Origin: an uncultured Thermotogaceae bacterium
Lineage (GTDB): Bacteria > Thermotogota > Thermotogae > MWEM01
DNA: 64,000 nucleotides
NCBI GenBank assembly: GCA_964462525.1
Contig: CAYWWY010000004.1
Coordinates: forward strand, 181,297-245,296
Direction: 5' to 3'
Shown here: one piece after another, positions 1-13,903 of the stretch
Position numbering within the stretch: the stretch's first letter is position 1
How the letters are laid out: every line of letters starts with the position of its first letter
Notes under the pieces: generated by a model
Told to the model about the DNA's origin: nothing
The model's database searches: none
What the model saw: only the letters and a program-made list of their open reading frames with translations
Program-made: the position numbers and the translations under genes

Positions 1-1473
1 GGAAAAGCCTATCACCCCAATGGCAACCTGTGGTATGAGGGGGAGTGGAAAGAGGGGAAGCGAGAAGGGGAAGGCAAACAGTATAATGAAGGGGGAAATT
101 TCCTCTATGAGGGGCAATGGAAGGCCAATCGATTCCACGGTTTAGGGAAGTTGTATGACCCTGATGGGCATTTGATCTACGATGGCTCCTTTTCCGCCGG
201 GAGAGAAGATGGAGAGGGAAGGCAATATCGCCCGGAAGGAGGATTGTCCTACCAGGGACAGTGGAAGGAAGGGAATCCCCATGGACAAGGGATTAAATAC
301 CATGAGAATGGTTTGATCTGGTATGATGGCAGTTTTGAAGGTGGTCAGTCGCACGGATGCGGAAAGGCGTACTATGAAGAAGGGGGTTTGGCGTATCAGG
401 GAAACTGGAAGGATGGCCTACGCCACGGTGAAGGTAAACTATATAATGCTGATGGCCATTTGGAATACTTCGGGCAATGGAACCAGGGTGAGCCTGTTGC
501 TCAGTTTATCGAAGAAGAGGGAGAAAGAGAAGAAATGAGTTCAGTTCATAATTTGCCCTTAGAATCCCTCAGGCAACGTCTTCCAGAATTTGAAGTGACA
601 GATCAGAGAGAGGTCATCATTGATCTTGGGCAATGTCTCGCCTTTCACTTCACCCCGCTATCTCCGTTGGAAATTGATTGGAACCCTTTTGCTGCCACAT
701 TACGGCAATTTGAAGAAAACCCGGATCTCACCTATGATCAATCCATCTTAAAGTCCTATTACGACGCCTATCCAAGAGAAAACAAGCAACAGGCTTTTAT
801 GCTCCCCACTACAAACCCTTATCCCCCGCTTTGGGATCTGAAAGCCAGGGCTGCTTTTCCCATGCCCTGGACCCGCCCGGAGCAATACGCACGATTCTAT
901 TTAGGCGCTGGGTTCATCCAGTATGAAGGGAAGGCTCCTGCATTCTCTGAGAAAAATATCTCCGAAATCGAACGCATGGTCTACGATTTCAGCCGTTCCC
1001 AACCTTTGTCTCAGTGGGTGCCTGAGGATAAACCCTCTCTAGGTAATCCGATCCCTCGACCGGGCTTAGCCGAGTTTGGTCCTGTCGAGCAGGAGGAGGG
1101 CGAAGCGATCTTTAAAAAACTGCTCGATACCTATATCTGCATTCGCACCATCGGATACCTTCCCGCCTTGTTCAAAGGAAGTGTGGTATCAGGAACGCTT
1201 TTGCTTCAAGAGGGTGATTACAGGTTTGTAGTGGGTTCCGGGATGTTTCTTGTGGCAGCATTGGCGGCATGCGGCTATAAAACGATTTCTGCTGTCCTTT
1301 CTCAAGATACTTTCGGCGTGGTTTCATTCAGCGATATCAGCCAACTTCCCTACGTGAAGCGAGATGTTTACCCCTTAGATACGGCGCAAACCCTTTTTCT
1401 CCAAGCATTTTCTCCTTTCAGAGATAAGGGAAAAGATATTTCTATAGAAGAAGGAGGGACAGATGAGCAATAA
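1..1473 (+). CDS. MORN-repeat protein, 5'-truncated at the window edge (reading frame 1 is open from position 1), with a C-terminal domain of unknown function
   Basis: Tandem YxGxWKxGxxHGxGxxY MORN motifs are translated from position 1 onward. The ORF track shows 151..1473 in the same frame with no stop upstream. The C-terminal ~300 aa carry no recognisable motif. Confidence 0.7.
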   Translation, partial: GKAYHPNGNLWYEGEWKEGKREGEGKQYNEGGNFLYEGQWKANRFHGLGKLYDPDGHLIYDGSFSAGREDGEGRQYRPEGGLSYQGQWKEGNPHGQGIKYHENGLIWYDGSFEGGQSHGCGKAYYEEGGLAYQGNWKDGLRHGEGKLYNADGHLEYFGQWNQGEPVAQFIEEEGEREEMSSVHNLPLESLRQRLPEFEVTDQREVIIDLGQCLAFHFTPLSPLEIDWNPFAATLRQFEENPDLTYDQSILKSYYDAYPRENKQQAFMLPTTNPYPPLWDLKARAAFPMPWTRPEQYARFYLGAGFIQYEGKAPAFSEKNISEIERMVYDFSRSQPLSQWVPEDKPSLGNPIPRPGLAEFGPVEQEEGEAIFKKLLDTYICIRTIGYLPALFKGSVVSGTLLLQEGDYRFVVGSGMFLVAALAACGYKTISAVLSQDTFGVVSFSDISQLPYVKRDVYPLDTAQTLFLQAFSPFRDKGKDISIEEGGTDEQ

Positions 1474-3487
1474 AATGAGAAAAAAGAAGACAAAATCCTC
1501 CGACCCAATAGCTACTGTGACAGCCAAACCAGCCTTGTCTCTCTATACAAAAAACCTGGTTTTTCTTAAAGCTTTCGCACCGCAGCTTGCAACACGAGTT
1601 GAAAGTCTTCCCTCTACCCGGAAATACCAGGTTCAAAAAACGGGCCCAAAAAACCTATGGAACCTCACTCTACCCGACCGAAATGGTTTTTTCTATGACC
1701 TCAACGATCCCATCGAACAAACCCGTGAAGAACTGAAGAAACTGGACTTGAAAAACGCGAAGTGTGTGCTTTTTTTGGGCTGTGGCTTGGGTTACGAGAT
1801 CGATTGCTTTTTACAGGATCATTCTCAGAAAGCGCCCACAACCCATATGGTGATTGTGGAAAAGGAGTTGGAGGTTTTTGCTGCTTCCATGCAAGTTCAG
1901 GATTATGCCGCTATGGGAAAACTGCTTTCTTTGCATTTGGTAGTGGGAGAACCACAGGAGGAATTGTTTGGTAAAATGCAAGACCAGTTCTCAGCAGGGT
2001 ATAAGCTTGTTGTATTATTAAAAGCCATGAAACCTGTTTTCCTCATGCAAACGTTACAGAGAAACAAAGAATACTATCTCCAAGCTCTTAAGGCCTTTCG
2101 CGAAGCAGGAATATACCGGTTGAATAATTTCGGAAATTCCATCGAAGACTCTTTGATCGGTGTACAGAATATGCTGGAGAATATCAACGAGATCATCTAC
2201 AACCCCGGAATCAACCTATTGTTTGATCAGTTCAAGGGAAAACCCGCAATCGTAGCCTCTACAGGTCCTTCCCTCAATAAAACAAAGCACTTGTTGAAAG
2301 GGCTTGAGGAAAAAGCATTGATTATTGCGCCTGAGGCATCTTTACGGCCACTTATGGCAATCGGGGTAAAACCACACATGATTGTTTCGATTGAACGCAC
2401 CCCAGAGGTTGTGCCTTTGATGGAAGGTTTTCAAAAAGAAGAGGTGTGCGATGTATACTATTCGGCAACTCCTGTAATATTGAACAAAGCCTATCAAGCC
2501 TATCCAGGGCCAAGAATCATAGTATACCGGAATTTCGATCATTTCAAATGGCTTCAGATAGATCGTGGAATTTTGAATATCTCACATTCGACAGGGAATA
2601 TGTCCTTTGAAATCGCAGCCGCAATGGGATGTGATCCCATCATTTTGATTGGTCAGGATCTTGCTTATGGTCGGGAAGGAATTACTCACGCATCGGGAGT
2701 CTTTCATGATGACAAGCAGAAATTCAAGCAGGAAAACCGGATACAGGTGCCGGGCAATGATGGTGAACCCGTCTATACAAATCAATTATGGCAGCTCTTC
2801 CGAACCTCTTATGAATTGGCGTTGTCAAAATACCCTGGCACCTGTATCAACTGTTCTGAAGGAGGGGCCTATATAAAAGGCTCAACATTTATGCGCTTCG
2901 AAGAAGCCATACCGAAATACATCACAAAACCCTATTTTCCGCTTGAAAAGATCAAATCACACCTAAGCCACTTTTCTTCCAAGCAGGCAGAAGAGGATAG
3001 AAAGCGCGTCTTCCAGTTGGTATTGGGCGCAATCGATGTGATGGAGGGGATGTACCAATCTTGTGCAGAAGCAGTTCAAGCTTTGAAAGATTATGATTCG
3101 GAATTATTAGCCTTATTGAACCAAAAAGACTATTGCAAAGAGAATGAGGAACGGCTAAAGTATATTCATTCACACATCAATGGATTCAAACTTCAAGTAC
3201 AAAAAAACAAAGAAACTTTTCAGCTGTTATTTATGCACATTATTCAATCATTTTATTTAAATTTCGAAATAGAAATGAATGCTATACCGAATAAACATGA
3301 TGTTTCCATAAAAGCTTCCATCGAAACCATTCTTTCTCAAAAGAAATGGTTTGCTGTCATCGGAGACACCGCAAAACTCTGCATTGGGTTGCTTGAAAAA
3401 GCAAAAGAAGATATTGTTCATCCTTATAATTCTTCGGGTGTTCGAGAAGAGTCGTTTAATAATCCTTCAAATCCTCCAAAAAACTAG
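1463..3487 (+). CDS. Motility accessory factor (Maf, DUF115 / MptE-like), a putative flagellin nonulosonic-acid glycosyltransferase
   Basis: 674 aa. Its length and motifs (LFLGCGLGYEI Rossmann-like segment, IVASTGPSLNK, C-terminal helical region) match the Maf/DUF115 family of Campylobacter and Helicobacter glycosylation islands. Its start overlaps the MORN gene stop by 11 nt. Confidence 0.75.
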   Translation: MSNKMRKKKTKSSDPIATVTAKPALSLYTKNLVFLKAFAPQLATRVESLPSTRKYQVQKTGPKNLWNLTLPDRNGFFYDLNDPIEQTREELKKLDLKNAKCVLFLGCGLGYEIDCFLQDHSQKAPTTHMVIVEKELEVFAASMQVQDYAAMGKLLSLHLVVGEPQEELFGKMQDQFSAGYKLVVLLKAMKPVFLMQTLQRNKEYYLQALKAFREAGIYRLNNFGNSIEDSLIGVQNMLENINEIIYNPGINLLFDQFKGKPAIVASTGPSLNKTKHLLKGLEEKALIIAPEASLRPLMAIGVKPHMIVSIERTPEVVPLMEGFQKEEVCDVYYSATPVILNKAYQAYPGPRIIVYRNFDHFKWLQIDRGILNISHSTGNMSFEIAAAMGCDPIILIGQDLAYGREGITHASGVFHDDKQKFKQENRIQVPGNDGEPVYTNQLWQLFRTSYELALSKYPGTCINCSEGGAYIKGSTFMRFEEAIPKYITKPYFPLEKIKSHLSHFSSKQAEEDRKRVFQLVLGAIDVMEGMYQSCAEAVQALKDYDSELLALLNQKDYCKENEERLKYIHSHINGFKLQVQKNKETFQLLFMHIIQSFYLNFEIEMNAIPNKHDVSIKASIETILSQKKWFAVIGDTAKLCIGLLEKAKEDIVHPYNSSGVREESFNNPSNPPKN

Positions 3488-4794
3488 TTCAACCGTTGAA
3501 AACCGCTATGACAGATTGGCCCTTTGAGGGCTTTCTTTTCTTGGTTTTGGGTTACCAAACGCTTAATTTCCGAAAAACTCTCTAATACCGCTTGCTTATA
3601 TTTTGCAATCGTTTCTTCGTTATGTGCAAAAGAGGCATAAAAAGCAGTGGAAGCAAGAAACCCTTTTTCGAGCATGAGTTGGGTGAAGAGGGTTTTCAGT
3701 ACTGAAGGCTCTGGGCAATCGAATCCGAAACGGCACAATGGGTCGATTCCGGAGATAAGGATTGAAAGACTCGCCTGGTCTGCGGCTTGAGCCCATATCT
3801 TTTTAATGGCTTTGCCTGCTTGGATCAATTTCGCTTGTGCCTTTGTTTTTCCCATCTTTTTAATGGTGGCTAAGGCTGCTGATGGGCCAATTCGATCGGT
3901 CCAGTAGGTGCTGCTGATGAATGAGTCTTGGGCTTTTTGCATGATCCCTCTTTTTCCAATGACGGCTGCCATGGGAAAGCCGTTGCTGATGCCTTTTGCA
4001 AAGATAGCGATGTCTGGTTTGTATTCATAGAGAAGGTGCGCTCCGCCCAAGCAAAGGCGAAATCCCGCGGTGATCTCGTCGATAACTAGAGGAATCTGGT
4101 TTTCTTGGGCGATCTGATTGACGGCTTGGAGAAAGTCTGGTCTGGGGTCGGTATTGCGTAGAGGTTCCATGACAATAGCCCCGATCCGATGTCGGTGGGT
4201 GCGCCATAGGTTGAGAAATTCTTGGGTGTCGTTGAAGTGAAAGGGAATGGCCGTTCCTTTCAATCCCCGGGGTACTCCAAGGGGTAGAAGGCCTGGGAGC
4301 AAGTGGCCATCCAGGGCTGCTTGGTCGGAAAGGTTGGAGGCCAAGTACCAGTCGCTCCATCCGTGGTAGCCGCAGAAGAGAATGGTGTCTTTTCGGGAGA
4401 AGGCCCGCGCTATGCGAACAGCGATAGCCATGGCCTCCCCTCCGCTCCGAGCATACCGTACCATCTGGGCCCAGGGATGGAGGCCGATCAGAAGCTCGGC
4501 CAGCTCCACTTCTTCGGGAGGGTTGAGTGTGTTCATGTTACCCTTTCCCACTGCTTCTATCACGGCAGTGTTGACCTCCTGGTCGGCATATCCGAGCGGG
4601 CAGGCTCCGATACCCATATAGCTGAAATCGTAATAATGATTATTATCCAGGTCCCAAACTTCGCATCCTTCGGAACGGCTGTAGTAAGCGGGCCATATGT
4701 CAGGGAGGAACATTTCCGGACGCTTGGAGAGGAGCTGGGTTCCGCCGGGTATGATAGTTTTGGCTTTTCGGTACAGGTCTTGTCCTTTGCCCAT
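3484..4794 (-). CDS. Class-III PLP aminotransferase (glutamate-1-semialdehyde 2,1-aminomutase-like)
   Basis: 436 aa. The GSA-AT family pattern is present, including the FAKGISNGFP PLP-lysine segment and a GYHGW motif. It is convergent with the Maf gene. Confidence 0.8.
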   Translation of the reverse strand: MGKGQDLYRKAKTIIPGGTQLLSKRPEMFLPDIWPAYYSRSEGCEVWDLDNNHYYDFSYMGIGACPLGYADQEVNTAVIEAVGKGNMNTLNPPEEVELAELLIGLHPWAQMVRYARSGGEAMAIAVRIARAFSRKDTILFCGYHGWSDWYLASNLSDQAALDGHLLPGLLPLGVPRGLKGTAIPFHFNDTQEFLNLWRTHRHRIGAIVMEPLRNTDPRPDFLQAVNQIAQENQIPLVIDEITAGFRLCLGGAHLLYEYKPDIAIFAKGISNGFPMAAVIGKRGIMQKAQDSFISSTYWTDRIGPSAALATIKKMGKTKAQAKLIQAGKAIKKIWAQAADQASLSILISGIDPLCRFGFDCPEPSVLKTLFTQLMLEKGFLASTAFYASFAHNEETIAKYKQAVLESFSEIKRLVTQNQEKKALKGPICHSGFQRLN

Positions 4795-4808
4795 TTTAAT
4801 GTGCCTCC

Positions 4809-6125
4809 TTAGATGGTTCTTTCGTCTTCCAAAGATTTTTTCAACCCTTCGTTGATGGGGATATGGATATTTTGCCCAGCTTCATGAGGATGGGACTTGA
4901 TCCACTTCAGGATTTCATCCATTCCAAAATACCTTCCTTCTTTTCCTAAGTCTTGAAAAATCTTCTGAATCAAATCGAAATCTTCCTGCTGATCGACTGT
5001 CCATCGCAGATGGCTGTAATTGGCTTGATCCAGTGCCACGTTTATCTTTCGCATATGCTTTCTCAAGTAAGGGGTGACATGTTCCCGATCAGACTTCATG
5101 GTGGCTTTTTGATTGGCTTGCTCCAAAGCATGGATACTAAAGACTTCCGTATCCAAACCATCGGGGTACGTGAGAAAGTCTATATTCGATGCGTAGTCCA
5201 CATTTTGCGCGTTATCTTGGTACACTTCTACGACCCGGTCAATGACCTCGGGGTCGATCAAAGGGCAATCTCCGGTTATCCGGACTAAGATCTGGGCCCG
5301 ATATGCTTTGGCGGCTTCGTAAAAGCGAGTAAGCACATCGTTCAGGTCCCCCCGATAGTAGGGGATTGCGTGATGCTCGCACAATTGAACCAGAGGGTTG
5401 TCGGAAGGATCCACAGATGTGGCAATGATGGTCTGGTGAACTGATCGGGCTTTTCGTACGCGATCGTAAACCTGCTGAATCATGGGTTTCCTCCCCAGCT
5501 CCTTGAGCACCTTACCTGGAAGCCGTGAGGAGCTGCACCGAGCCTGGATAATGGCTACCACTTTTTTTCCATATACCAGCCATCGTTGGCGTGTGATCGA
5601 CATGAACAAAGAATCGACATACTGTCCTTGAACGAGCTGATCCTGGCATTTTTTGCCCTCTTCCTGAAAACCGATTTTTCGGTAGATGGCGCTTGCTGAA
5701 GGGTTTGTTTCCAACACACCGAGATAGACCCGGTTCAAGTTCAGAATGGAGAAAGCGTAATCGACCACCAATTTTGTCGTTTGGGTTGCATATCCCTTTC
5801 CCCAGGAGGCTCTGTCTCCTATGAGGATTCCATAATCAGCCTTTCGGTTGATCCAGTCGATGTGATCGAGTTTAACGTTGCCGATGTGGCGGTTTTGGTC
5901 TTTCCGGTAGATGGCGAAGGTGATGCGGTAAGCATGGTTCGATGATGCAATGAAGCTTTGCACATCTTCTAGGGATTGCGGAGTTTTTCCGCTGACCAAA
6001 GTTCGTGTGACCTGCTCGTCGTTCATCCAGTCTACGTAGGTTTCTGTACATTCCTTTTGGGTTAGTTTTTTCAGACCGATCGATTCCGTTTCCAGGAAAT
6101 ACATCATTGGTTCCTCCCTTACCAT
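4809..6125 (-). CDS. Bifunctional GNAT N-acetyltransferase / CMP-nonulosonate cytidylyltransferase fusion (PseH-like plus PseF/NeuA-like)
   Basis: The N-terminal ~180 aa form a GNAT fold (RimL-like). The C-terminal ~250 aa begin VVAIIQARCSSSRLPGKVL, the acylneuraminate cytidylyltransferase (CMP-NeuAc/CMP-Pse synthetase) signature. Confidence 0.8.
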   Translation of the reverse strand: MVREEPMMYFLETESIGLKKLTQKECTETYVDWMNDEQVTRTLVSGKTPQSLEDVQSFIASSNHAYRITFAIYRKDQNRHIGNVKLDHIDWINRKADYGILIGDRASWGKGYATQTTKLVVDYAFSILNLNRVYLGVLETNPSASAIYRKIGFQEEGKKCQDQLVQGQYVDSLFMSITRQRWLVYGKKVVAIIQARCSSSRLPGKVLKELGRKPMIQQVYDRVRKARSVHQTIIATSVDPSDNPLVQLCEHHAIPYYRGDLNDVLTRFYEAAKAYRAQILVRITGDCPLIDPEVIDRVVEVYQDNAQNVDYASNIDFLTYPDGLDTEVFSIHALEQANQKATMKSDREHVTPYLRKHMRKINVALDQANYSHLRWTVDQQEDFDLIQKIFQDLGKEGRYFGMDEILKWIKSHPHEAGQNIHIPINEGLKKSLEDERTI

Positions 6126-7051
6126 TGTCTCGGATCGATGATATTGGTGGGAATGTCTGAAAAGACTTCCTTTTGTTTATGGATGGCCAGGCTTGGCACC
6201 TTATGAAGGGTATTCCAGACTTGGATGTTCTTTTTTAACTGTTCTTCCCTCTCCACACCGATTAAAACGCTGTCGATTTCGCGGAACTGTGCAACGAAGG
6301 CCATAGCTAATTGTTGAATAGAACAACCATATTCTATCGTCATCTCTTGTAGTTTCTTGAGATAAGGAGTTGCGTTTCTCAGTTTTTCGGGCAGGATTTC
6401 CTTGGAAAGGAAGAAGAAGCCTTGGAGATATATGCTTCGAGCGTAGATGGTCCACCCCTGATCTTTCATCCTCTGAAGAAGCTGGTTACGGAGGAACCTG
6501 TGGTCAAAGAGATTGAGTGGGATCTGAATGGAACGAATGGGTTCGATTGCTTTGGTCTTTTTAAGGAGATACTCTGCCTCCTGTGGCTCGTAGACTGATA
6601 TGCCTGCATGAAGGATCTTCCCCTTTTCTTGGGCTTGATGAAAGGCTTGGACGATTTCTGCCTGATACCGGAGGATGTCATGAAAGTCATGGAGCATAGC
6701 AAGAGACAGTTGTGGAAGGCCCATAGACACAATAGAAGCATTGATGCTGCGATGAATATTGTCTTCTACCCGTTCGGAAAGTGTTTTTTCTTTAGATAGA
6801 GATGCGATTTTGGTCCCGATCCAAAGATTCGGGATGTACTCAGGATGTTTTTCTAAAAATGCTCCTATACGGGATTCACTCTGGCCGTATGTGGAAGCTG
6901 TGTCCCAAGAGGTAATACCTTGATCAATAGCCAGGGCTAGGATTCGAAAGACCTCTTCTTGTACTGGCATCCCTTGAAAGTTTGCAATACCATAAGACAG
7001 GCCCAATTGAGCGGTACCCAATGTGAGCAATGAAATTTTCGGCTTTTGCAT
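6119..7051 (-). CDS. Aldo/keto reductase family oxidoreductase
   Basis: 310 aa with an AKR N-terminal pattern (LGTAQLG...YG, DTASTYG). It overlaps the neighbouring gene by 7 nt. Confidence 0.8.
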   Translation of the reverse strand: MQKPKISLLTLGTAQLGLSYGIANFQGMPVQEEVFRILALAIDQGITSWDTASTYGQSESRIGAFLEKHPEYIPNLWIGTKIASLSKEKTLSERVEDNIHRSINASIVSMGLPQLSLAMLHDFHDILRYQAEIVQAFHQAQEKGKILHAGISVYEPQEAEYLLKKTKAIEPIRSIQIPLNLFDHRFLRNQLLQRMKDQGWTIYARSIYLQGFFFLSKEILPEKLRNATPYLKKLQEMTIEYGCSIQQLAMAFVAQFREIDSVLIGVEREEQLKKNIQVWNTLHKVPSLAIHKQKEVFSDIPTNIIDPRQW

Positions 7052-7075
7052 ATTCCTTTTCTTTCTTCCCTTCTT

Positions 7076-7846
7076 TCATTCTTCCTTTTCTAGTTGAATG
7101 CCAATGGAAAGAAAGTATTTCTTCCCTTCTTCCAAAAACCAAGCATTTTGATAAGGAGGAAATGTTAGTGCCCTCAATAGGTTGATCCATTCTCGAGCAG
7201 TCTGTCTTTGATCCATCCGGATATGGAGAAGCTCTAAAAAATCGCTATGAGTGTGGTGGGTCCCTTCCTCAAGTGGTGTAAAAGGTGTGATTTTTCTTTG
7301 GAGATATGGGATCAAGGCCTTCTCTAAAACTTTAATCGAAGTGCGTTCCAGCTTGTGGTAAAGCGTTTTTGCGTTATCATCTGGTTCCACAGGCACTTTT
7401 TCTCTGTAGACAATTGGTCCTTGGTCTATCTTAGGGGTCATGATATGAAGGGTAACTCCCGCAGGAGAACCGTCGATCAGTGGCCATACATTCGGGTGCT
7501 TTCCTTTATTCCATGGAAGGTATCCGGTATGAAGATTCAGCGCATTTTCAAAAAGGACTAAAACCCTTTCTGGGATCAGATACCCAAAGTTTACTGAAAG
7601 TAAGATATCCGTATCTTGCTCTTTGATTGCTTGGACTATTTTATCCTGGGACTTTTTTTCCCAAGTGATAACGGAAATACCCTTATTTTCAGCAATCTCC
7701 TTGATTTCTCGAAGGCGTTGGGCATTTTTCTCTGGATGCACTAATAGCGCTTTGATAATGATTGTATCGCATTGCAAGAGGTATCGGAATGAAATGAGCC
7801 CATTGGTATTGTTTATCGCCAAAAGGATAGCAACCTTATCCGACAT
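7076..7846 (-). CDS. Sugar N-formyltransferase (formyl_trans_N fold)
   Basis: The NLHTGYLPWNKGKHP segment matches the N-x-H-x-S-L-L-P catalytic loop of Fmt/GART-type formyltransferases. A downstream KIDQGPIV segment supplies the catalytic Asp. Confidence 0.7.
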   Translation of the reverse strand: MSDKVAILLAINNTNGLISFRYLLQCDTIIIKALLVHPEKNAQRLREIKEIAENKGISVITWEKKSQDKIVQAIKEQDTDILLSVNFGYLIPERVLVLFENALNLHTGYLPWNKGKHPNVWPLIDGSPAGVTLHIMTPKIDQGPIVYREKVPVEPDDNAKTLYHKLERTSIKVLEKALIPYLQRKITPFTPLEEGTHHTHSDFLELLHIRMDQRQTAREWINLLRALTFPPYQNAWFLEEGKKYFLSIGIQLEKEE

Positions 7847-7850
7847 CTTG

Positions 7851-8531
7851 TCATTGAACCTTCCGAATCAAGATCAAAGGTTCAGCATACTGCAATCCCA
7901 CGCGGTTACCCCAATATTGGGCGTGATTGATAACTGAACCCAAAGATCGGGAATGGGGGTAGGGTTTCATTTCTGAAGCGTAGTGGGAAAGGGCTTTGAT
8001 CTTTTTCTGGATCGTGGTTTTGACATCAACATAGACATTTGGAGAAAAAGATGGTTGCGTTTGAGGTTCGAGCCAGTCTGTCGATGACGGAATGAAAAAC
8101 GAATAGATATCCGGGTGATCCGTTCCGTTCTGTGGTCGGCACGAGGTCATGACTGCCTGGAAAGTGATTCTGTGGTCGATGTTGAGGTCGTGGGAGAAGT
8201 GTGTCATGATAATGGTTGGTTTGTAAGAGGCAATCTCTTTTTCCACGGCTTTGACCACTTCTAAAAGGGGCAGTCGATCCATTGCATTGTCGGGGAAGTC
8301 TAAGAATTTGATTTCGCCAATCCCCAGGTATTTATTAGCCGCTTGCGCATCGGACCGCAATGATTCTAAAGGGCTGTATGTAGAACCTTGCTGTTGATCC
8401 CGAGAGAGCAGGCCAGTGGCGAGGATCAAGCTTTTGGCCATTGCGCCTTCTTCAATCCATCGGCATACGGTTGCTCCCACTCCCAGAAGTTCGTCGTCGG
8501 GATGTGCCGCTATGATCAGGATCTTATTCAT
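7851..8531 (-). CDS. LmbE/PIG-L family N-acetylglucosaminyl deacetylase
   Basis: AHPDDELLG zinc-binding motif. The true start is most likely the internal MNKILIIAAHPDDE (ATG at 8531); the longer track ORF (to 8678) overlaps the upstream gene by 155 nt. Confidence 0.75.
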   Translation of the reverse strand: MNKILIIAAHPDDELLGVGATVCRWIEEGAMAKSLILATGLLSRDQQQGSTYSPLESLRSDAQAANKYLGIGEIKFLDFPDNAMDRLPLLEVVKAVEKEIASYKPTIIMTHFSHDLNIDHRITFQAVMTSCRPQNGTDHPDIYSFFIPSSTDWLEPQTQPSFSPNVYVDVKTTIQKKIKALSHYASEMKPYPHSRSLGSVINHAQYWGNRVGLQYAEPLILIRKVQ

Positions 8532-9216
8532 CCTTTTCCCCTTTTTTTGGTCGAATCCGAACACGGGCTTCGATTGATCCGTTGCGTAGGGTGGCATGAT
8601 TGATTTCAAAACGAAAGCAATCCGTTTCAAGGTAGGCGGGTGGATATCCTTCAGCATCGAGCATGCGAATATGGTCATATATACTTACCAAATCTTTATT
8701 TCCTCTTAGGTTGCTTTCTTTCGGCGTTCTCCTTGGAAAGGTCGTTACCTTGCCTTTCTGAGGTTGGGGGACGATCGTTTCTTGGATCAATCGAGGGATC
8801 ATTTTCTGGAAAATGATTTCTGAAGCTCGTATATAAATCTCTTCAGCAGATCCATAAAGAGATAGCTCTTCTTTCATGTAAATTGGCCCGGCGTCTATCT
8901 CTCTAACTACGCGGATGGCTGAAATCTTTGTTTGGTAAATTCCTCTGCTGATAAGATTTTGTAATGGGCTCCCCCCTCTACCGAAAGGCAAATCGGTCAT
9001 ATGGAATACGATGCACTCAAAAGTGTCGTAAACCGACTTTGGAATGATCCATGACCAATGAGGAAAGAAGATCTTTTCTGGGCTGGATATTTCAGCAGTT
9101 TCCTTCAGAGTTTCCTTGTCTTGTATAATATCGAAGTCGTGCTCAGGAAAGAGAGCTTGGAGTTTCTTTGCTTGCTCCAGGTTCCACGATTTGGTTGTGG
9201 CAATGAGATATCGCAC
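8524..9216 (-). CDS. Second formyltransferase-fold protein (sugar N-formyltransferase-like, N-terminal catalytic domain only)
   Basis: IVFHMTDLPFGRGGSP segment (HxSLLPxxRG-type loop) and a VVREIDAGPIY Asp motif. 230 aa. Confidence 0.65.
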   Translation of the reverse strand: MRYLIATTKSWNLEQAKKLQALFPEHDFDIIQDKETLKETAEISSPEKIFFPHWSWIIPKSVYDTFECIVFHMTDLPFGRGGSPLQNLISRGIYQTKISAIRVVREIDAGPIYMKEELSLYGSAEEIYIRASEIIFQKMIPRLIQETIVPQPQKGKVTTFPRRTPKESNLRGNKDLVSIYDHIRMLDAEGYPPAYLETDCFRFEINHATLRNGSIEARVRIRPKKGEKDE

Positions 9217-9681
9217 TGGTTACCTTCTTTCTCTTGACGGTCCATGCTTTCCAAAAGCAATCCGGCGGGCCTTCTCCCTTTGACTTAATGCAGAATATGA
9301 AACCCCTTCCTATCGCCCTCAAATACTCTTTTTTTCATTCAGACCGGCTTTACCCTTTTCTTTCAAAGACATTTTTGGATCGGATGTTGAAAGGCATTTT
9401 CGGTTTCTGTTTGATTAAAAAAACCCCAGGATTCGTCCATGGTATGGCTCAGTACACTCGTGATTTTCGGAAGCCAAGTCCAGATAATGGCCTTGTCCAA
9501 ACTTATTATATCACACCGTCCGATCAATCCCATCGGTAAATAAAACAGAGAATCCAAACGGGTGCTAGAAAGAGCAGACAGAAGGGAGGACTTTGGGAAA
9601 ATGACAGTGAAGCCGCGGTTGGATGGAGCAGGCTGGTCCACGAGATCGGATCGTTGGATTGTTGAAATGGATTGTTACAGT

Positions 9682-10731
9682 TTATCCCACCCATTCCCAC
9701 CGCATTGGTGTTCCTCGAGAAATGGTTTTTTTCGCTGTTTTTCCCAGGATCTCTTTGAGGTATTTCGGATGAAGGCCGTCACCTGGGCGGATGGAACGGA
9801 CATTCTCCAAAGTGAAATGTTCGCCTGCTTTCATGTCTTTGACCACAAAAAGGGAACGAGAAAATACCTTGCCTTGGGTTTTGGCTTTTTGGGTGAGCTG
9901 ATAGCTTACCTTTCCCAGAGCCTTTTCCACATCCCGAACGGATTGGACCATCTGTTTGAATTCATGGGGTTCCAAAGAGAAGGCGCTGTCGGCTCCCCCT
10001 GCCTTGCGGTCGATGGTGAAGTGTTTTTCGATCACTTGAGTGCCCAAGGCTACAGCCGCAATAGGCGCGGAGATTCCCAGGGTGTGATCGGAAAGGCCGG
10101 TGATGACGCCGAAAGCCTGGGCCATGTGGGGGATTGTACGCAGATTTGCCTCTTCGATCGGGGCGGGGTATGCGCTTGTGCATTTGAGGAGGATGATCTG
10201 GTCGTTTCCTTGTCCTTTGCAGGTTTCCACCGCATCTTCAATATCAGCAAGAGTGGCCACGCCTGTGGAGATCAGGATGGGTTTTCCTTTTGCCGCCACA
10301 TGTGCGATGAGCGGTAGGTCATGGATCTCAAAAGAGGCGATTTTGTACAGAGGCACATCCATGGTTTCAAGAAAATCAGCGGCCGATGGGTCAAATGGAG
10401 TGGAAAACCAGATCAACCCGAGTTGTTCCGCATAGCCCTTCAATTGCGGTTGCCATTCCCAGGGTGTGTACGCTTCTTTGTAGAGGTCGTACAGGGTTCG
10501 GCCATCCCACAGCGTCCCTTGTTTGATCTTGAAGAATTCGTTATCGCAGTCGATGGTCATGGTGTCGGCTGTGTAGGTTTGGAGTTTGATGGCGTCCGCT
10601 CCTGATTCTTTGGCTGCTTCGATAATCCTTTTGGCCAGACGGATATCCTGCTGGTGATTGGCCGACATCTCTGCAATAATGAAGGTGGGATGACCTTCGC
10701 CGATGCTTCTTTCTGCTATTCGGACATGCAT
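9682..10731 (-). CDS. Nonulosonic acid synthase (NeuB/PseI/LegI family)
   Basis: 349 aa. The NeuB-family N-terminus (ERSIGEGHPTFIIAEMSANH) and TIM-barrel-plus-antifreeze-like C-terminal architecture are present. An AAGGAGGA RBS sits 5 nt upstream of the ATG. Confidence 0.85.
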   Translation of the reverse strand: MHVRIAERSIGEGHPTFIIAEMSANHQQDIRLAKRIIEAAKESGADAIKLQTYTADTMTIDCDNEFFKIKQGTLWDGRTLYDLYKEAYTPWEWQPQLKGYAEQLGLIWFSTPFDPSAADFLETMDVPLYKIASFEIHDLPLIAHVAAKGKPILISTGVATLADIEDAVETCKGQGNDQIILLKCTSAYPAPIEEANLRTIPHMAQAFGVITGLSDHTLGISAPIAAVALGTQVIEKHFTIDRKAGGADSAFSLEPHEFKQMVQSVRDVEKALGKVSYQLTQKAKTQGKVFSRSLFVVKDMKAGEHFTLENVRSIRPGDGLHPKYLKEILGKTAKKTISRGTPMRWEWVG

Positions 10732-10886
10732 GGGATCCTCCTTTTTTCGTTATCATTCTTGTATACTATGGGATAATCTATTTGAGCTTTCTTGGCTGAT
10801 GGATGAGAGGAGATTGCCGAATCAATAAAAACAAATTCGATGCAATCGTAAAAGATTTCAGTTCTGCCTTTCAAGCTGCTTTTAAT

Positions 10887-11828
10887 CTATAAATCCAGAT
10901 GGCCCTGAATCCATGTGTGCGTTTGCTGAATCCCTTCCTCGAGGCTGACTCTCGGGCTCCAATCCAATAGACTTTGGGCAAGAACAGGATTGCACTTGAG
11001 TTTCAGGATCTCCGCTTGGGGGTGGATGTGGGGCACATGGACGATCATTTCGCTGTTGGGTGCGATCATTTCTGCCAGCCTTCGAATGGGAATATCCTGG
11101 GATGTGCCTGCATTGAGGATCTTTCCCCATGCCTCTTTGGATTGGCTGGCTTTGTAGAGAAAGTCCACACAGTCTTCGACATACAATAGATCCCTGGTTT
11201 GCGTGCCATCACCGTAGATCTGCAAGGGCTGGTTTTTCATGGCGCGTTTGATGAAGACCGCCACCACACCCCCTTCTCCGTTGGTCTTCTGAAAGGGACC
11301 ATAGGTGTTGAAGGGGCGCACCACCATGGTGGGCAACCCATAGGAGTGATGGTAGGAGAGGGTCAAAGCTTCCCCGCTGAGTTTGGCCGCTGCGTAGGGG
11401 GATGCGGGTTTGGTGGGATGGGTTTCTGTGATCCCGCCTTCATCCATGCTTTGTTCGTACACCATGCATGTGGACATGAAAAGGAATGGGATGACCTGCT
11501 CCTTGCACTGTTGAAGGATCTGGAAGGTTCCAATGATGTCTCGGTCGATGGTTTGTTGGGGATCATCGATGGACTTTTGCACATTGATCTCGGCCGCCAG
11601 GTGGTAGACAAGATCCAACGGTTGTTTGAACAAGTCGATCACGGTTTTGGGATCGCGAATGTCTCCTTGGATGAACTGAAAGCGAGAGGAATCGCGGAAG
11701 GCCTCGATGTTTTCGATTCTCCCGTTGGATAGGTCGTCGAGGGCGATGACCGAATGGCCTTCATCGATCAGCCTGCGCACCAACCACCGTCCGATGAACC
11801 CCGCCCCTCCGGTGACAAGGGCGATCAT
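10887..11828 (-). CDS. NAD-dependent epimerase/dehydratase (extended SDR)
   Basis: VTGGAGFIGRWL Rossmann motif at the N-terminus. 313 aa. It overlaps the upstream dehydratase by 4 nt. Confidence 0.8.
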   Translation of the reverse strand: MIALVTGGAGFIGRWLVRRLIDEGHSVIALDDLSNGRIENIEAFRDSSRFQFIQGDIRDPKTVIDLFKQPLDLVYHLAAEINVQKSIDDPQQTIDRDIIGTFQILQQCKEQVIPFLFMSTCMVYEQSMDEGGITETHPTKPASPYAAAKLSGEALTLSYHHSYGLPTMVVRPFNTYGPFQKTNGEGGVVAVFIKRAMKNQPLQIYGDGTQTRDLLYVEDCVDFLYKASQSKEAWGKILNAGTSQDIPIRRLAEMIAPNSEMIVHVPHIHPQAEILKLKCNPVLAQSLLDWSPRVSLEEGIQQTHTWIQGHLDL

Positions 11829-12865
11829 GGCTCGACTTCCCGTTGAAGAATGGGCCAGATCAGCTCTTTGGTGCTGGGATAATCCAGCGGTTGCTCTTCA
11901 TGGGAGGCGTACAGGCGAGGGACACACGATTTGGCCAGCCCTTGGAAGCTATCCTCATACTCCTTTTGATCTCCCAGATATGGAAGGATCCCGAACATAT
12001 CGTCAAATTCCAACGCCCTTAGGCTTTCCTCTTCGGTCATCAATTCTTCATAAACTTTCTCCCCTGGCCGTTTTCCGATCACTTCAAATCGGTCATGCCC
12101 ATAGAACTCCGCAACGGCTTGGGCCAGTTCCTTCATCCGTACAACCGGCATCTTGAGTACAAAGGTTTCCCCCCCTCTGCCTACTTGGGCGGCTTTCAGA
12201 ATCAGCTCCACGGCATGTTCCTTGCTCATTACAAACCGCGTCATCTCAGGATCGGTGAGGGTTAACGGCGCCTTTTTCTTGGACTGCTCCATGAACAGGG
12301 GCAAAACGCTTCCCCGGCTCATGAGCACGTTTCCAAAACGCACGGTGATAAATCGGGCTTTTCGAGGTCCGCGATAGAATTGGGCCGAACTCATCAGCCG
12401 CTCAGCCAACAGTTTGGTGGCGCCCATGGTGTTGGTCGGTGCGGCCGCCTTGTCGGTGCTGGTATAGACGATGGTTTGCACGTTTTCCTGCAAAGCGCAT
12501 TCGATGACATTCTGCACGCCCATAACATTAGTCTTGACCGCTTCGAACGGGTTGTATTCGCAGGCAGGAACATGTTTCATCGCGGCGACGTTGAAAACGA
12601 TGTCGATCCCTTCCATGGCTCTTGCCAACCGGTCTTTATCTCGAACATCTCCGATAAGAAACCGGACAATGTCGGTGCTGGGGACTGCGCTGCCATTTTC
12701 ATAGAGCTCGAAGAGATGGAGTGCGTGCTGCATTTCGAATTGCTTATATTCATCTCGCGAGAATATTCGGACAACAGAGGGCTTGTCTTTAATAACCCTT
12801 TGAAGCAATGCTTTGCCTACTGTTCCCGTTCCGCCGATAATCAGGATTTTTTTCCCTGCAATCAT
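11825..12865 (-). CDS. UDP-GlcNAc 4,6-dehydratase (PseB/FlaA1/CapD-like)
   Basis: MIAGKKILIIGGTGTVGKAL start and length (346 aa) are typical of PseB/Cap5D-type polysaccharide biosynthesis dehydratases. It is the first gene of the minus-strand biosynthetic block. Confidence 0.8.
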   Translation of the reverse strand: MIAGKKILIIGGTGTVGKALLQRVIKDKPSVVRIFSRDEYKQFEMQHALHLFELYENGSAVPSTDIVRFLIGDVRDKDRLARAMEGIDIVFNVAAMKHVPACEYNPFEAVKTNVMGVQNVIECALQENVQTIVYTSTDKAAAPTNTMGATKLLAERLMSSAQFYRGPRKARFITVRFGNVLMSRGSVLPLFMEQSKKKAPLTLTDPEMTRFVMSKEHAVELILKAAQVGRGGETFVLKMPVVRMKELAQAVAEFYGHDRFEVIGKRPGEKVYEELMTEEESLRALEFDDMFGILPYLGDQKEYEDSFQGLAKSCVPRLYASHEEQPLDYPSTKELIWPILQREVEP

Positions 12866-12967: not shown

Positions 12968-13903
12968 TCACGCGGGGTCATCCAATCCTTCGAGGTATGT
13001 AATCCGGTTTCTCCCCGATTCTTTCGAGATATAGAGGGCCTCGTCGGCCGTTTTTACTAGGATCTCGGGTTTTTGTTCTCTGCCGGGGACTATGGTGGCC
13101 ACTCCTTGGCTGACAGTTACATACGAATCGACTTTCGACCATTCATGAGGGATTTGAAGGGCTTTTATGTTGTTCCGGAATAATTCAGCAACCTTGGTAG
13201 CGCCTTCAGAATCGGTGTTGGGGAGGATGCAGGCGAATTCTTCTCCGCCGTACCGGGCTGGGAGATCCGTTTTCCTGCGCAATGTCGCCTCCAAGACCTG
13301 GGCTACCTTTTTGAGGGATTCATCACCGGCCTGGTGGCCGTAGTGATCGTTGTAAAGCTTGAAGAAATCGATGTCGATCATAATGATGGAAAGGACCGAC
13401 ATAGCTCGCACAGAGAGCCCCCAAACTGTCTGCAAGTATTCGTTGAATTTGCGTCGATTGAAAATTCCGGTCAATCCGTCCCGATAGGATAGCGCTTCAA
13501 GGATATCTCTGTTGTTCTTGAGTTCCAGTTGGTTTTTGACTCGTGCTTTGACCACCACCGGTTTGAATGGCTTGGTGATGTAGTCCACCGCTCCGACCTC
13601 GAACCCGTAGATCTCATCCCGGTCTGTGTCTTTGCCGGTGATAAAAATGATGGGAATGGTTGCGGTGTTTGGATTGGATTTGATCTTCCTGCACACGTCA
13701 AACCCGTCCAGACCTGGCATCATTATATCCAGCAAAACCAAATCCGGAGGGGTGTCGGATTGGACGATTTTGATGGCTGTCTCCCCATTGTTGGCCACGC
13801 GCAAAGGATACAAAGGTCGTAAGATTTCCAGCAAGACGCGAATGTTCGTGGGCTCGTCATCCACGATCAAAATGGAATGATTGGTTTGATCCGTTTCGTT
13901 CAT
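12968..13903 (-). CDS. Response regulator receiver-GGDEF diguanylate cyclase
   Basis: A REC domain ([14 protein letters not shown]) is followed by a GGDEF domain with a GGEEF active site and an RxxD (RKTD) I-site. The true start is inferred at the internal MNETDQ ATG (13903). The upstream part of the track ORF overlaps the HK gene in another frame. Confidence 0.8.

What the first reader, a model, noticed from the sequence alone, without database searches (positions are those of the whole stretch)
1..12865. Flagellin-type nonulosonic acid glycosylation island with a non-canonical enzyme set
A Maf (DUF115) motility accessory factor sits next to a complete-looking nonulosonate pathway: PseB-like 4,6-dehydratase, SDR epimerase/dehydratase, NeuB/PseI-family synthase and a CMP-transferase. 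The set differs from the textbook Pse (PseBCHGIF) and Leg routes in several ways. There is no DegT/PseC-type aminotransferase and no PseG-type UDP-sugar hydrolase. In their place are a class-III (GSA-aminomutase-like) aminotransferase, an LmbE/PIG-L deacetylase, an aldo-keto reductase and two formyltransferase-fold enzymes. The most parsimonious product is an N-formylated 5,7-diamino nonulosonic acid (Pse5Ac7Fm-type sugars are known from Pseudomonas O-antigens), made here by an undescribed combination of steps and presumably transferred to flagellin by Maf.
Basis: partly seen in the sequence, partly recalled or inferred. Interest (0 to 1): 0.7.

Follow-up and report, generated by a model that had tools for sequence, protein, structure and literature searches.

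The report
Flagellin pseudaminic-acid sugar-decoration gene island
This is a gene island for decorating flagellin with a pseudaminic-acid-type sugar in an uncultured Thermotogota bacterium, assembled from modules already seen elsewhere, and unusual mainly because two standard steps (PseC amination, PseG UDP removal) are not encoded in the 64-kb window.

Summary
The gene inventory is real. It runs MORN protein, Maf, class-III aminotransferase (AT3), GNAT fused to a cytidylyltransferase (CT), aldo-keto reductase (AKR), sugar N-formyltransferase (FT), LmbE deacetylase, a formyltransferase-fold protein (FTs), PseI, and two SDRs. Flagellins of 969 and about 2100 aa lie just left of the window, so a flagellin glycosylation island is well supported.

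The "non-canonical set" breaks down into recurring modules:
- The two SDRs are Pen and Pal, the characterised Bacillus thuringiensis two-enzyme replacement for PseB.
- FT is a PseJ/VioF-type 4-amino-sugar N-formyltransferase.
- AKR–CT–AT3, often with a GNAT, occurs in at least 596 species. It normally sits inside clusters that also carry PseC, and has been noted but not characterised in Aeromonas.
- FTs–LmbE recurs beside pseI elsewhere.

AT3 is therefore probably not a general PseC substitute. No PseC or PseG homologue exists anywhere in the 64 kb, and the same layout is intact in an 86%-identical relative. Either these steps are encoded elsewhere in the genome, which I favour, or the island uses an undescribed route. 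The product is probably an N-formylated Pse-type sugar.

Verdict: new variant of a known kind, moderate interest.

The parts
1..1473 (+). MORN-repeat protein. The window holds the C-terminal ~490 aa of a 543-aa protein whose start lies left of the window. The N-terminus has MORN repeats. The ~310-aa C-terminal domain matches no known family. Its stop overlaps the maf start by 11 nt.
   Evidence: PF02493 MORN. Full length taken from L001 13322-14953. Only 3 homologues in 5.8 billion proteins. A 50%-identical homologue again sits between a giant flagellin and Maf. Not PseG-like. The AF2 model was unusable, pLDDT 36.
1463..3487 (+). Maf (motility accessory factor), the putative flagellin nonulosonate O-glycosyltransferase.
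   Evidence: PF01973 137 bits and PF20157 43 bits. NCBIfam FlagModPseD domain 183 bits, below the 670 cut-off.
3484..4794 (-). AT3: class-III (GSA-aminomutase-like) PLP aminotransferase, 436 aa. It belongs to a very widespread, highly conserved family tied to nonulosonate clusters.
   Evidence: PF00202. More than 8000 homologues, 61-68% identical across phyla. At least 596 species representatives. Nearest solved structures are GSA aminomutases, with sugar 6'-aminotransferases NeoN/GenB further down the list.
4809..6125 (-). Fusion of an N-terminal GNAT N-acetyltransferase (aa ~1-186) with a C-terminal SpsF-type cytidylyltransferase (aa ~187-438). The CT is the presumed CMP-nonulosonate synthetase.
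   Evidence: PF13302 + PF02348. Best structure for the CT half is 6oew, E 2.7e-35. No TIGR03584 PseF hit at E <= 1e-5; PseH scores 43.8 bits against a cut-off of 93. The GNAT groups with GNATs that travel with AKR-CT-AT3. Gene callers start it at 6104/6107.
6119..7051 (-). Aldo-keto reductase, part of the conserved AKR-CT-AT3 module.
   Evidence: PF00248 129 bits. Adjacent to CT and AT3 in most loci. Nearest structures are Kv-beta and YghZ, only ~60 bits.
7076..7846 (-). FT: sugar N-formyltransferase of the 4-amino-4,6-dideoxyhexose type (PseJ / VioF / WbtJ-like).
   Evidence: PF00551 + PF18216. NF005755 at 120 bits. PDB matches 6v33, 4nv1, 4yfv, 4pzu, and 6ci4 PseJ at E 2.4e-20. The Asn-x-His and Asp catalytic residues align with E. 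coli FMT.
7851..8531 (-). LmbE/PIG-L family metal-dependent de-N-acetylase (226 aa from the ATG at 8531).
   Evidence: PF02585 86.6 bits. BshB1/2 sub-threshold. Called as 226 aa. The AHPDDE motif is visible in the sequence.
8524..9216 (-). FTs: short formyltransferase-fold protein (230 aa) of the 1ZGH family. The catalytic Asn is replaced throughout the family, and the function is unknown. It forms a recurring pair with LmbE next to pseI.
   Evidence: PF21553 77 bits. PDB 1zgh E 1.2e-74. The FTs-LmbE pair also occurs in L067, L081 and L087. Asn is replaced by Val or Cys while His and Asp are kept.
9217..9681 (.). 465-bp non-coding spacer between pseI and FTs.
   Evidence: No Rfam match here: the only match in the window is a tRNA at 57179-57251. 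The sequence was read. The promoter and terminator scan gave no more hits than shuffled sequence.
9682..10731 (-). PseI, pseudaminic acid synthase (NeuB family + SAF domain).
   Evidence: TIGR03586 510.9 bits, above the 340.25 cut-off. TIGR03569 NeuB 325.6 bits, below its 399.65 cut-off. PF03102 318 bits.
10887..11828 (-). Pal-type SDR. In B. thuringiensis Pal is the UDP-6-deoxy-D-GlcNAc-5,6-ene 4-oxidase / 5,6-reductase / 5-epimerase.
   Evidence: PDB 6bwl 'Pal' E 3.9e-113, 381 bits; the next hit scores 196 bits. Activity as quoted in PMC5109656.
11825..12865 (-). Pen-type SDR. In B. thuringiensis Pen is the UDP-GlcNAc 4-oxidase / 5,6-dehydratase / 4-reductase. This is the first gene of the operon.
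   Evidence: PDB 6bwc 303.6 bits, compared with 228.7 bits for H. pylori PseB 2gn4. That 6bwc is B. thuringiensis Pen is from memory (the PDB table labels it CapD). TIGR03589 PseB 316.9 bits, below the 407.75 cut-off. The Pen-Pal pair also occurs in L005, L083 and L091.

Best explanation
This is a Maf-dependent flagellin glycosylation island of an uncultured Kosmotogaceae-like Thermotogota bacterium. It makes a CMP-activated, N-formylated pseudaminic-acid-type nonulosonate and attaches it to the very large flagellins encoded immediately to the left. It is a mosaic of modules that each recur elsewhere.

Proposed steps:
1. [quoted passage not shown] This rests on strong homology to characterised, crystallised enzymes.
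2. C4 transamination (PseC) and UDP hydrolysis (PseG) are not encoded in the window. I infer they are most likely supplied from another locus of the genome. The PseC-PseG(-PseH) block that sits between the dehydratase and pseI in related clusters has been lost or relocated as a unit.
3. FT formylates the 4-amino group, as PseJ does, which gives N7-formyl in the final sugar. LmbE removes an N-acetyl group. FTs and/or the GNAT re-acylate. This step is inferred.
4. PseI condenses the hexose with PEP. PseI meets the curated equivalog cut-off.
5. The conserved AKR-CT-AT3(+GNAT) module activates the acid as the CMP-sugar, using the SpsF-type CT. I also propose that it tailors the sugar: AKR plus the class-III transaminase convert a hydroxyl through a ketone to an amine, and the GNAT acetylates it. 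This tailoring role is hypothesis only.
6. Maf transfers the sugar to Ser/Thr of flagellin. This is inferred from family membership.
For: **Identity as a flagellin island**
- Maf domains are present.
- Flagellins of 969 aa and ~2100 aa are adjacent, and the arrangement is the same in four assemblies.
- A more distant relative has giant flagellin-MORN-Maf-SDR-CT-GNAT-Pen-Pal.
- No Wzx, Wzy or glycosyltransferase was found among the main ORFs annotated across the 64 kb.

**Pse chemistry**
- PseI scores above the curated cut-off.
- The best solved structures for the two SDRs are Pen (6bwc) and Pal (6bwl).
- The Pen/Pal reaction is described in PMC5109656 and PMC7439481.

**Formylation and deacetylation**
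- FT is closest to 4-amino-sugar N-formyltransferases including PseJ, with an intact triad.
- In Ca. Kuenenia, a deacetylase plus formyltransferase in a nonulosonate cluster correlates with CMP-nonulosonates carrying a free amine and an N-formyl group.

**CT as the activating enzyme**
- It is the only cytidylyltransferase in most of these clusters.
- B. subtilis SpsF is needed for transfer of legionaminic acid but not for its synthesis.

**AT3 is not PseC**
- 26 of 29 comparable loci carry DegT as well.
- The nearest outgroup AT3s (65-68% identity) sit in complete canonical clusters.
- The window's AT3 keeps every invariant residue of the family.

**Module coupling**
- AT3-CT fusions exist: P0052 and L087.
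- An AKR-CT fusion exists in Vibrio, and GNAT-CT is fused here.
- The window's GNAT groups with the module-associated GNATs.

**The layout is functional**
- All ORFs are intact here and in the relative whose AT3 is 86% identical, L008.
Against: - No PseC or PseG was found in 64 kb, and I could not examine the rest of the genome. Supply in trans is therefore an assumption.
- Loss of PseC and PseG together from an otherwise self-contained operon, conserved in two diverged genomes, is also what a self-sufficient alternative route would look like.
- Compact clusters PseB-CT-AT3-NeuB-DUF218-X in Bacteroidales and Blautia also lack DegT and PseG. This shows AT3 can be the only aminotransferase near a nonulosonate synthase.
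- The tailoring role proposed for AKR and AT3 has no experimental support.
- FTs lacks the catalytic Asn, so its activity is unknown.
- The CT is not a PseF-family member.
- Flagellin glycosylation itself is not shown.
Confidence: 0.55

Rival explanations
1. Self-sufficient alternative route, essentially the first reader's idea. The island needs no PseC or PseG. The class-III aminotransferase AT3 installs the amine that becomes N7. It would act on the Pen/Pal 4-keto product, on the free sugar, or on a 7-keto nonulosonate after condensation. FT or the GNAT then acylates the amine, and another island protein (FTs, LmbE, AKR or the MORN C-domain) removes UDP.
For: - No PseC or PseG in 64 kb by sensitive profile search.
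- The operon is intact and conserved in the relative whose AT3 is 86% identical.
- DegT-less and PseG-less compact clusters exist, with a true PseB (510 bits), CT, AT3 and a NeuB-family synthase, in Bacteroidales and Blautia.
- AT3 homologues also occur in sugar-catabolic neighbourhoods with NanA-like, NanE and ROK genes, which suggests activity on free sugars.
- The island has one aminotransferase plus two N-acyltransferases, the right count for a 5,7-diacylamido sugar.
Against: - AT3 orthologues at 60-68% identity sit next to PseC in 26 of 29 loci, and in complete canonical clusters. An enzyme this conserved is unlikely to have changed substrate only here.
- As far as I know, all characterised NDP-4-keto-sugar aminotransferases are DegT-type, not class III.
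- No candidate UDP-sugar hydrolase could be identified. The MORN C-domain shows no PseG similarity.
Confidence: 0.28
2. Different product. Without PseC the 4-keto group is reduced rather than aminated, for example by AKR. PseI would then make a 5-amino-7-hydroxy-9-deoxy nonulosonate, or another non-Pse acid, with AT3 placing an amine elsewhere.
For: - PseC is absent.
- AKR and AT3 are both carbonyl-directed enzymes.
- An 8-amino nonulosonate exists in nature.
Against: - PseI scores well above the equivalog cut-off for pseudaminic acid synthase.
- FT belongs to the 4-amino-4,6-dideoxyhexose N-formyltransferase group, which implies a 4-amino intermediate.
- As far as I know, no such 7-hydroxy-9-deoxy acid has been reported on flagellins.
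Confidence: 0.1
3. Decaying or non-functional remnant. The island lost pseC and pseG and no longer makes a nonulosonate.
For: Two canonical steps are missing. A 465-bp non-coding gap follows pseI.
Against: - All eleven ORFs are full length with intact motifs.
- The same layout is kept at 86% AT3 protein identity in L008 and in four assemblies.
- Adjacent genes overlap or abut (for example FTs/LmbE, Pal/Pen and MORN/maf), as in an expressed operon.
Confidence: 0.05

Closest known systems
Bacillus thuringiensis seven-enzyme CMP-pseudaminic acid pathway (Pen, Pal, Pam, Pdi, Phy, Ppa, Pcp; Li et al. 2015, cited in PMC5109656; structures 6BWC, 6BWL)
   Same: The first two enzymes here are Pen and Pal orthologues (304 and 381 bits to the solved structures). 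They are adjacent and in the same order. A PseI-type synthase follows.
   Different: There is no DegT aminotransferase (Pam) and no UDP-sugar hydrolase (Phy/PseG). The cytidylyltransferase is SpsF-type and fused to a GNAT. The extra AKR, AT3, FT, LmbE and FTs genes are not, to my knowledge, part of the seven-enzyme pathway. The island is linked to Maf and flagellins.
Aeromonas polar-flagellin glycosylation islands, group I (Forn-Cuni et al. 2021, PMC7874193)
   Same: Maf lies next to the flagellin genes. The pse genes have an aldo/keto reductase before pseF and a class-III aminotransferase after it. Some subgroups add a deacetylase, and subgroups ID and IE lack PseG. The glycan is a single Pse derivative, for example 403 Da in strain AH-1.
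   Different: Aeromonas keeps pseB and pseC, whereas this island has Pen/Pal and no pseC. No formyltransferases are reported there. That the Aeromonas enzymes belong to the same families is inferred from identical synteny, not checked by sequence.
PseJ-type N-formyl pseudaminic acid pathway (PDB 6CI4; the organism, Anoxybacillus kamchatkensis, and the reference, Reimer et al. 2018, are from memory)
   Same: A formyltransferase of the sugar N-formyltransferase group sits in a Pse cluster and would give a 7-N-formyl Pse.
   Different: FT is closer to dTDP-Qui4N formyltransferases (6v33, 4nv1; E ~1e-29) than to PseJ (E 2e-20). Its substrate would normally come from PseC, which is missing here.
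Ca. Kuenenia stuttgartiensis nonulosonate cluster with deacetylase + formyltransferase (SugarBase preprint, 10.64898/2026.04.20.719630)
   Same: A deacetylase and a formyltransferase lie between the early genes and neuB. The measured CMP-nonulosonates carry one free amine and one N-formyl group.
   Different: The authors describe it as a legionaminic-acid-related cluster with legB, legC and legG homologues, and report these sugars on complex O-glycans rather than on flagellin. Sequence relatedness to the window's LmbE, FT and FTs was not tested.
Canonical Campylobacter/Helicobacter PseB-C-H-G-I-F pathway with Maf/PseD/PseE
   Same: The overall logic is the same: UDP-GlcNAc to a 6-deoxy-4-keto sugar, then condensation with PEP by PseI, then the CMP-sugar, then Maf-type transfer to flagellin.
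   Different: PseB is replaced by Pen + Pal. PseC and PseG are absent. PseF is replaced by an SpsF-type enzyme. The GNAT is only PseH-like (44 bits against a cut-off of 93).

Membership tests
Maf-type flagellin nonulosonate glycosylation island | Maf (MptE-like / DUF115) glycosyltransferase | tested here: met
   PF01973 137 bits and PF20157. PseD-domain model 183 bits, sub-threshold for the PseD name.
Maf-type flagellin nonulosonate glycosylation island | Physical linkage to flagellin genes | tested here: met
   On the same contig, flagellins of 969 aa and ~2100 aa start 176 bp and ~4 kb beyond the MORN gene, outside the window.
Maf-type flagellin nonulosonate glycosylation island | Flagellin actually carries the sugar | not testable with these tools
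   Needs mass spectrometry of flagellin. The central regions are 19% Ser+Thr, which is only permissive.
CMP-pseudaminic acid pathway | Pseudaminic acid synthase PseI | tested here: met
   TIGR03586 510.9 bits, above the 340.25 cut-off. The NeuB model scores below its cut-off.
CMP-pseudaminic acid pathway | Formation of UDP-4-keto-6-deoxy-L-AltNAc (PseB, or Pen + Pal) | tested here: met
   Best solved relatives are Pen 6bwc (304 bits) and Pal 6bwl (381 bits). The PseB equivalog cut-off is not reached, 317 against 408.
CMP-pseudaminic acid pathway | DegT-type C4 aminotransferase PseC | tested here: not met
   Profile of 36 PseC sequences against six frames of 64 kb: best E 0.09.
CMP-pseudaminic acid pathway | UDP-sugar hydrolase PseG | tested here: not met
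   Profile of 16 PseG sequences: best E 0.07 in the window. The same profile finds PseG proteins with no precomputed Pfam hit at 163-188 bits.
CMP-pseudaminic acid pathway | N4-acyltransferase (PseH acetyl- or PseJ formyl-transferase) | tested here: inconclusive
   The GNAT domain is PseH-like at 43.8 bits, below the 93.1 cut-off, and groups with module-associated GNATs. FT is PseJ/VioF-like with an intact triad. The substrate is unproven.
CMP-pseudaminic acid pathway | CMP-Pse synthetase PseF (TIGR03584 family) | tested here: not met
   No TIGR03584 hit at E <= 1e-5, although the model does detect another protein, L005's second CT. The enzyme is SpsF-type (6oew) and presumed to be a functional analogue.
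   Genes right of the island are two-component and GGDEF signalling proteins followed by housekeeping genes. No Wzx, Wzy or glycosyltransferase was found among the main ORFs annotated across the 64 kb; shorter ORFs were not scanned.
AKR-CT-AT3 nonulosonate module (uncharacterised, widespread) | Adjacent aldo-keto reductase, SpsF-type cytidylyltransferase and 436-aa class-III aminotransferase in a NeuB/PseI cluster | tested here: met
   The window has AKR, GNAT-CT and AT3 in that order. The same trio occurs in L005-L007, L088-L090 and many others. 33 of 51 well-flanked loci have CT and 24 of 51 have AKR.

The most novel reading that the evidence does not exclude
The island is self-sufficient and encodes a PseC- and PseG-independent route to an N-formylated pseudaminic-acid-type sugar. 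In this route a class-III (omega-transaminase-like) enzyme, not a DegT enzyme, installs an amine, and UDP is removed by an unrecognised protein. More broadly, the GNAT-AKR-CT-AT3 module, present in at least 596 species, would be an undescribed nonulosonate amination and tailoring system. It could, for example, make 5,7,8-triamino acids of the kind known from Tenacibaculum maritimum.
Probability: 0.25. Interest if true: 0.75.

Novelty: new variant of a known kind. Interest (0 to 1): 0.42.

Why it matters
Pseudaminic acids are needed for flagellar assembly and virulence in several pathogens, and they are targets for inhibitors, vaccines and antibodies. The pathway is usually taught as six fixed enzymes.

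This island and the roughly 80 loci compared with it show three things:
- A class-III aminotransferase, aldo-keto reductase and SpsF-type cytidylyltransferase module is among the most widespread accessories of Pse clusters across bacteria and archaea, yet it has no assigned reaction.
- A formyltransferase-fold protein lacking the catalytic Asn recurs together with an LmbE deacetylase beside pseI.
- A few lineages, including this one, carry the module with no PseC or PseG nearby.

Working out what the module does would explain unexplained glycan masses on Aeromonas flagellins. It might also reveal a second way to aminate nonulosonates. The window itself is one more example rather than a new principle, unless the genome proves to lack pseC and pseG.

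Tried and rejected
1. **LPS/capsule cluster.** Rejected. No Wzx, Wzy or glycosyltransferase was found among the main ORFs annotated across the 64 kb, and flagellins are adjacent.
2. **NeuAc or Kdo synthase.** Rejected by the curated cut-offs.
3. **MORN C-terminal domain as a hidden PseG.** There is no profile similarity. Only 3 homologues exist. The AlphaFold model from a 3-sequence alignment had pLDDT 36 and was unusable, so no fold search was run.
4. **Remnants of pseC or pseG in the intergenic gaps.** None were found in the six-frame profile search. The 465-bp gap has no Rfam match, and promoter and terminator hits were no more frequent than in shuffled sequence.
5. **Second cytidylyltransferases in related loci as true PseF.** None reaches the PseF cut-off. 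The best is L005's second CT at 71 bits against a cut-off of 206.
6. **The unknown ~205-aa protein X of the compact PseB-CT-AT3-NeuB-DUF218-X clusters.** No NCBIfam, Pfam or PDB match.
7. **Literature search for a characterised function of the class-III aminotransferase or AKR in Pse clusters.** Only genomic descriptions were found. The Tenacibaculum O-antigen paper did not link its 8-amino sugar to these genes.
8. **Organism names from cluster look-up.** None were returned. Taxonomy was inferred from LeuRS instead.

Full report
**1. What is in the sequence**

ORF listing and Pfam/NCBIfam scans show eleven genes between 1 and 12865.

On the + strand:
- A MORN-repeat protein at 1-1473. It is cut at the window edge and its full length is 543 aa.
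- Maf at 1463-3487, overlapping the MORN stop by 11 nt.

Convergent on the - strand is a nine-gene operon. In transcription order:
- Pen-like SDR, 12865-11825
- Pal-like SDR, 11828-10887
- PseI, 10731-9682
- a 465-bp gap
- a short formyltransferase-fold protein FTs, 9216-8524
- LmbE/PIG-L deacetylase, 8531-7851
- sugar N-formyltransferase FT, 7846-7076
- aldo-keto reductase AKR, 7051-6119
- a GNAT-cytidylyltransferase fusion, 6125-4809
- class-III aminotransferase AT3, 4794-3484

To the right the island ends at a response-regulator/GGDEF gene and histidine kinases. The remainder of the window is housekeeping, including LeuRS, PFK, ApbE, RadC, FtsH and TilS. No Wzx, Wzy or glycosyltransferase was found among the main ORFs annotated.

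It missed the GNAT fusion and the MORN gene.

**2. Surroundings beyond the window**

The exact AT3 protein occurs on contigs from several ENA assemblies, all with the same gene order. Left of the MORN gene these contigs carry a 969-aa flagellin and a ~2100-aa flagellin, each with Flagellin_N and Flagellin_C domains.

A more distant relative, whose MORN protein is 50% identical, has a 1511-aa flagellin followed by MORN, Maf, SDR, CT, GNAT, Pen and Pal.

Linkage to flagellin is thus conserved, and the flagellin-glycosylation reading is well supported. LeuRS places the organism near Kosmotoga and Mesotoga at 64-66% identity, so it is an uncultured Thermotogota bacterium.

**3. Dissecting the 'non-canonical' set**

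(a) *The two SDRs.* Their best solved relatives are 6BWC (304 bits, against 229 for H. pylori PseB) and 6BWL 'Pal' (381 bits; the next hit is 196). 6BWC is deposited as 'CapD'; that it is B. thuringiensis Pen is from memory. These are the B. thuringiensis enzymes that together replace PseB. The same Pen-Pal pair precedes a DegT gene in a Methanoperedenaceae archaeon (L005) and a Chloroflexi locus (L083).

(b) *PseI.* It meets the curated equivalog cut-off for pseudaminic acid synthase and fails the NeuB cut-off.

(c) *FT.* It is closest to solved 4-amino-4,6-dideoxyhexose N-formyltransferases: 6v33, WbtJ 4nv1, VioF, Rv3404c and PseJ 6ci4. It keeps the Asn-x-His and Asp catalytic residues.

(d) *FTs.* It matches the structural-genomics entry 1ZGH at E 1e-74. 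In every member examined the catalytic Asn is Val or Cys, while His and Asp are kept. FTs followed by LmbE recurs directly beside pseI in Sphingobacterium (L067), Omnitrophota (L081) and Njordibacter (L087). All three of those clusters also have PseB, PseC and PseG.

(e) *The cytidylyltransferase.* It is SpsF-type (6oew) and not a member of the PseF family. B. subtilis SpsF is required for transfer of legionaminic acid but not for its synthesis, which fits a CMP-nonulosonate synthetase.

**4. The class-III aminotransferase**

AT3 belongs to a strikingly conserved family:
- More than 8000 database hits, nearly all of the top hits 436 aa long.
- 61-68% identity across Omnitrophota, Bacteroidota, Saganbacteria, Margulisbacteria and Methanoperedenaceae.
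- At least 596 species representatives in the genome collection.

I annotated 83 related loci with reference proteins and home-made profiles. The usual arrangement is PseB-PseC-[AKR]-CT-AT3-PseG-...-PseI.

Among 51 loci with at least 5 kb on both sides, 29 hold a PseB-type enzyme and a NeuB/PseI. Of those 29:
- 26 also hold DegT/PseC.
- 15 hold a recognisable PseG.

The nearest AT3 relatives outside the window's own lineage (65-68% identity) lie in complete clusters of the form PseB-PseC-PseG-PseH-PseI-AKR-CT-AT3.

Fusions tie the module together:
- AT3-CT fusions: P0052 and L087.
- An AKR-CT fusion in Vibrio (PMC7371886).
- The GNAT-CT fusion in this window.

The window's GNAT domain groups with GNATs placed immediately before AKR or after AT3 in other loci (114-120 bits). 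It does not group with the GNATs at the PseG/PseI position of those same loci.

The pattern of an AKR before pseF and a class-III aminotransferase after pseF has been described, without an assigned function, for 96 Aeromonas strains (PMC7874193).

The conserved role of AT3 is therefore not that of PseC. It is an accessory of unknown reaction that is coupled to the cytidylyltransferase.

Its structural relatives include the sugar 6'-aminotransferases NeoN and GenB, which to my knowledge work with a dehydrogenase partner. On that basis I propose an alcohol to ketone to amine (to acetamide) tailoring module. This is a hypothesis. A chemical precedent exists in the 8-amino-pentadeoxy-nonulosonate of Flexibacter maritimus.

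**5. What is really unusual**

No PseC or PseG homologue exists anywhere in the 64 kb. The six-frame profile search gave best E values of 0.09 and 0.07. The PseG profile is demonstrably sensitive.

Only the window and L008, a MAG labelled Thermotogaceae whose AT3 is 86% identical, show this exact layout, with all ORFs intact.

In related clusters PseC-PseG(-PseH) form a contiguous block between the dehydratase and pseI. That is exactly where the window has a 155-bp Pal-PseI junction. A single loss or relocation event would explain the absence of both genes.

Because the rest of the operon is conserved, the missing steps must be supplied in one of two ways:
- from elsewhere in the genome, which I favour at about 0.55 and could not test; or
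- by island enzymes, at about 0.28.

The second possibility gains some support from compact clusters in Bacteroidales and Blautia schinkii. These run PseB-CT-AT3-NeuB-DUF218-X, with a true PseB at 510 bits, and have no DegT or PseG nearby. AT3 homologues are also found in sugar-catabolic neighbourhoods.

**6. Product**

A PseJ/VioF-type formyltransferase together with an LmbE deacetylase points to a Pse-type acid with an N-formyl group and possibly a free or re-acylated second amine. A recent preprint linked a deacetylase plus formyltransferase in a nonulosonate cluster to CMP-nonulosonates carrying one free and one formylated amine. The exact substitution pattern cannot be derived from sequence.

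**7. Comparison and verdict**

The island works like the Aeromonas, Campylobacter and Geobacillus flagellin Pse islands.

Membership tests give:
- Met: Maf, flagellin linkage, PseI, Pen/Pal.
- Not met in the window: PseC, PseG, PseF-family synthetase.
- Inconclusive: the N4-acyltransferase.

It is a new variant of a known kind, a mosaic of one characterised module (Pen/Pal), one known enzyme type (N-formyltransferase) and two recurrent but uncharacterised modules (AKR-CT-AT3-GNAT and FTs-LmbE).

Its interpretation is partly supported. The flagellin Pse island and probable N-formylation stand. The claim that the extra enzymes replace PseC and PseG is not supported by the comparative data, although it is not excluded for this lineage.

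Noticed in passing
L001 15129-18038 (-) and 19049 onward (+), immediately left of window position 1; L091 3412-7947: Very large flagellins (969 aa, ~2100 aa, and 1511 aa in a relative), each with Flagellin_N and Flagellin_C ends, lie next to the island in a Thermotogota lineage. The central region is 19% Ser+Thr.
   Followed up: partly
window 1-1473 (+); L091 10001-11599: A MORN-repeat protein with a ~310-aa C-terminal domain of no known family overlaps the maf start by 11 nt, suggesting translational coupling. It is conserved between a giant flagellin and Maf in a 50%-identical relative. Only 3 homologues were found in 5.8 billion proteins, and the structure prediction failed.
   Followed up: partly
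L015 5337-10716; L018 8209-13592; L048 8164-13748: Compact six-gene clusters PseB-CT-AT3-NeuB(ambiguous NeuB/PseI)-DUF218-unknown ~205-aa protein occur in Bacteroidales and Blautia schinkii, with no DegT, PseG or GNAT nearby. This may be a nonulosonate route built from non-homologous replacements.
   Followed up: partly
L076 7484-11302; L045 8373-11314; L066 9959-12329: AT3 homologues at ~50% identity sit outside biosynthetic clusters. One lies next to NanA-like lyase, NanE and ROK kinase genes. Others lie next to a 3-keto-disaccharide hydrolase plus an amidohydrolase, or a GFO/IDH/MocA oxidoreductase. This suggests activity on free amino or keto sugars.
   Followed up: partly
window 8524-9216; L067 12211-12903; L081 14782-15483; L087 15058-15735: The 1ZGH-like formyltransferase-fold family lacks the catalytic Asn in all members examined (Val or Cys instead) but keeps His and Asp. 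It is always followed by an LmbE deacetylase next to pseI.
   Followed up: partly
L087 9266-11305; protein P0052: Natural fusions of the SpsF-type cytidylyltransferase with the class-III aminotransferase, 679 and 708 aa.
   Followed up: no
window 12968-24188: A dense block of signalling genes lies directly right of the island. It contains a response regulator-GGDEF, a 955-aa hybrid histidine kinase with an Hpt domain, a second histidine kinase, a metallophosphoesterase, and a 1562-aa multi-PAS/GAF hybrid kinase.
   Followed up: no
window 9217-9681: An unusually long (465 bp) non-coding spacer inside the operon, between pseI and FTs. There is no Rfam match and no convincing promoter or terminator.
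   Followed up: partly
window 57179-57251 (-): A single tRNA gene, the only Rfam match in the window.
   Followed up: no
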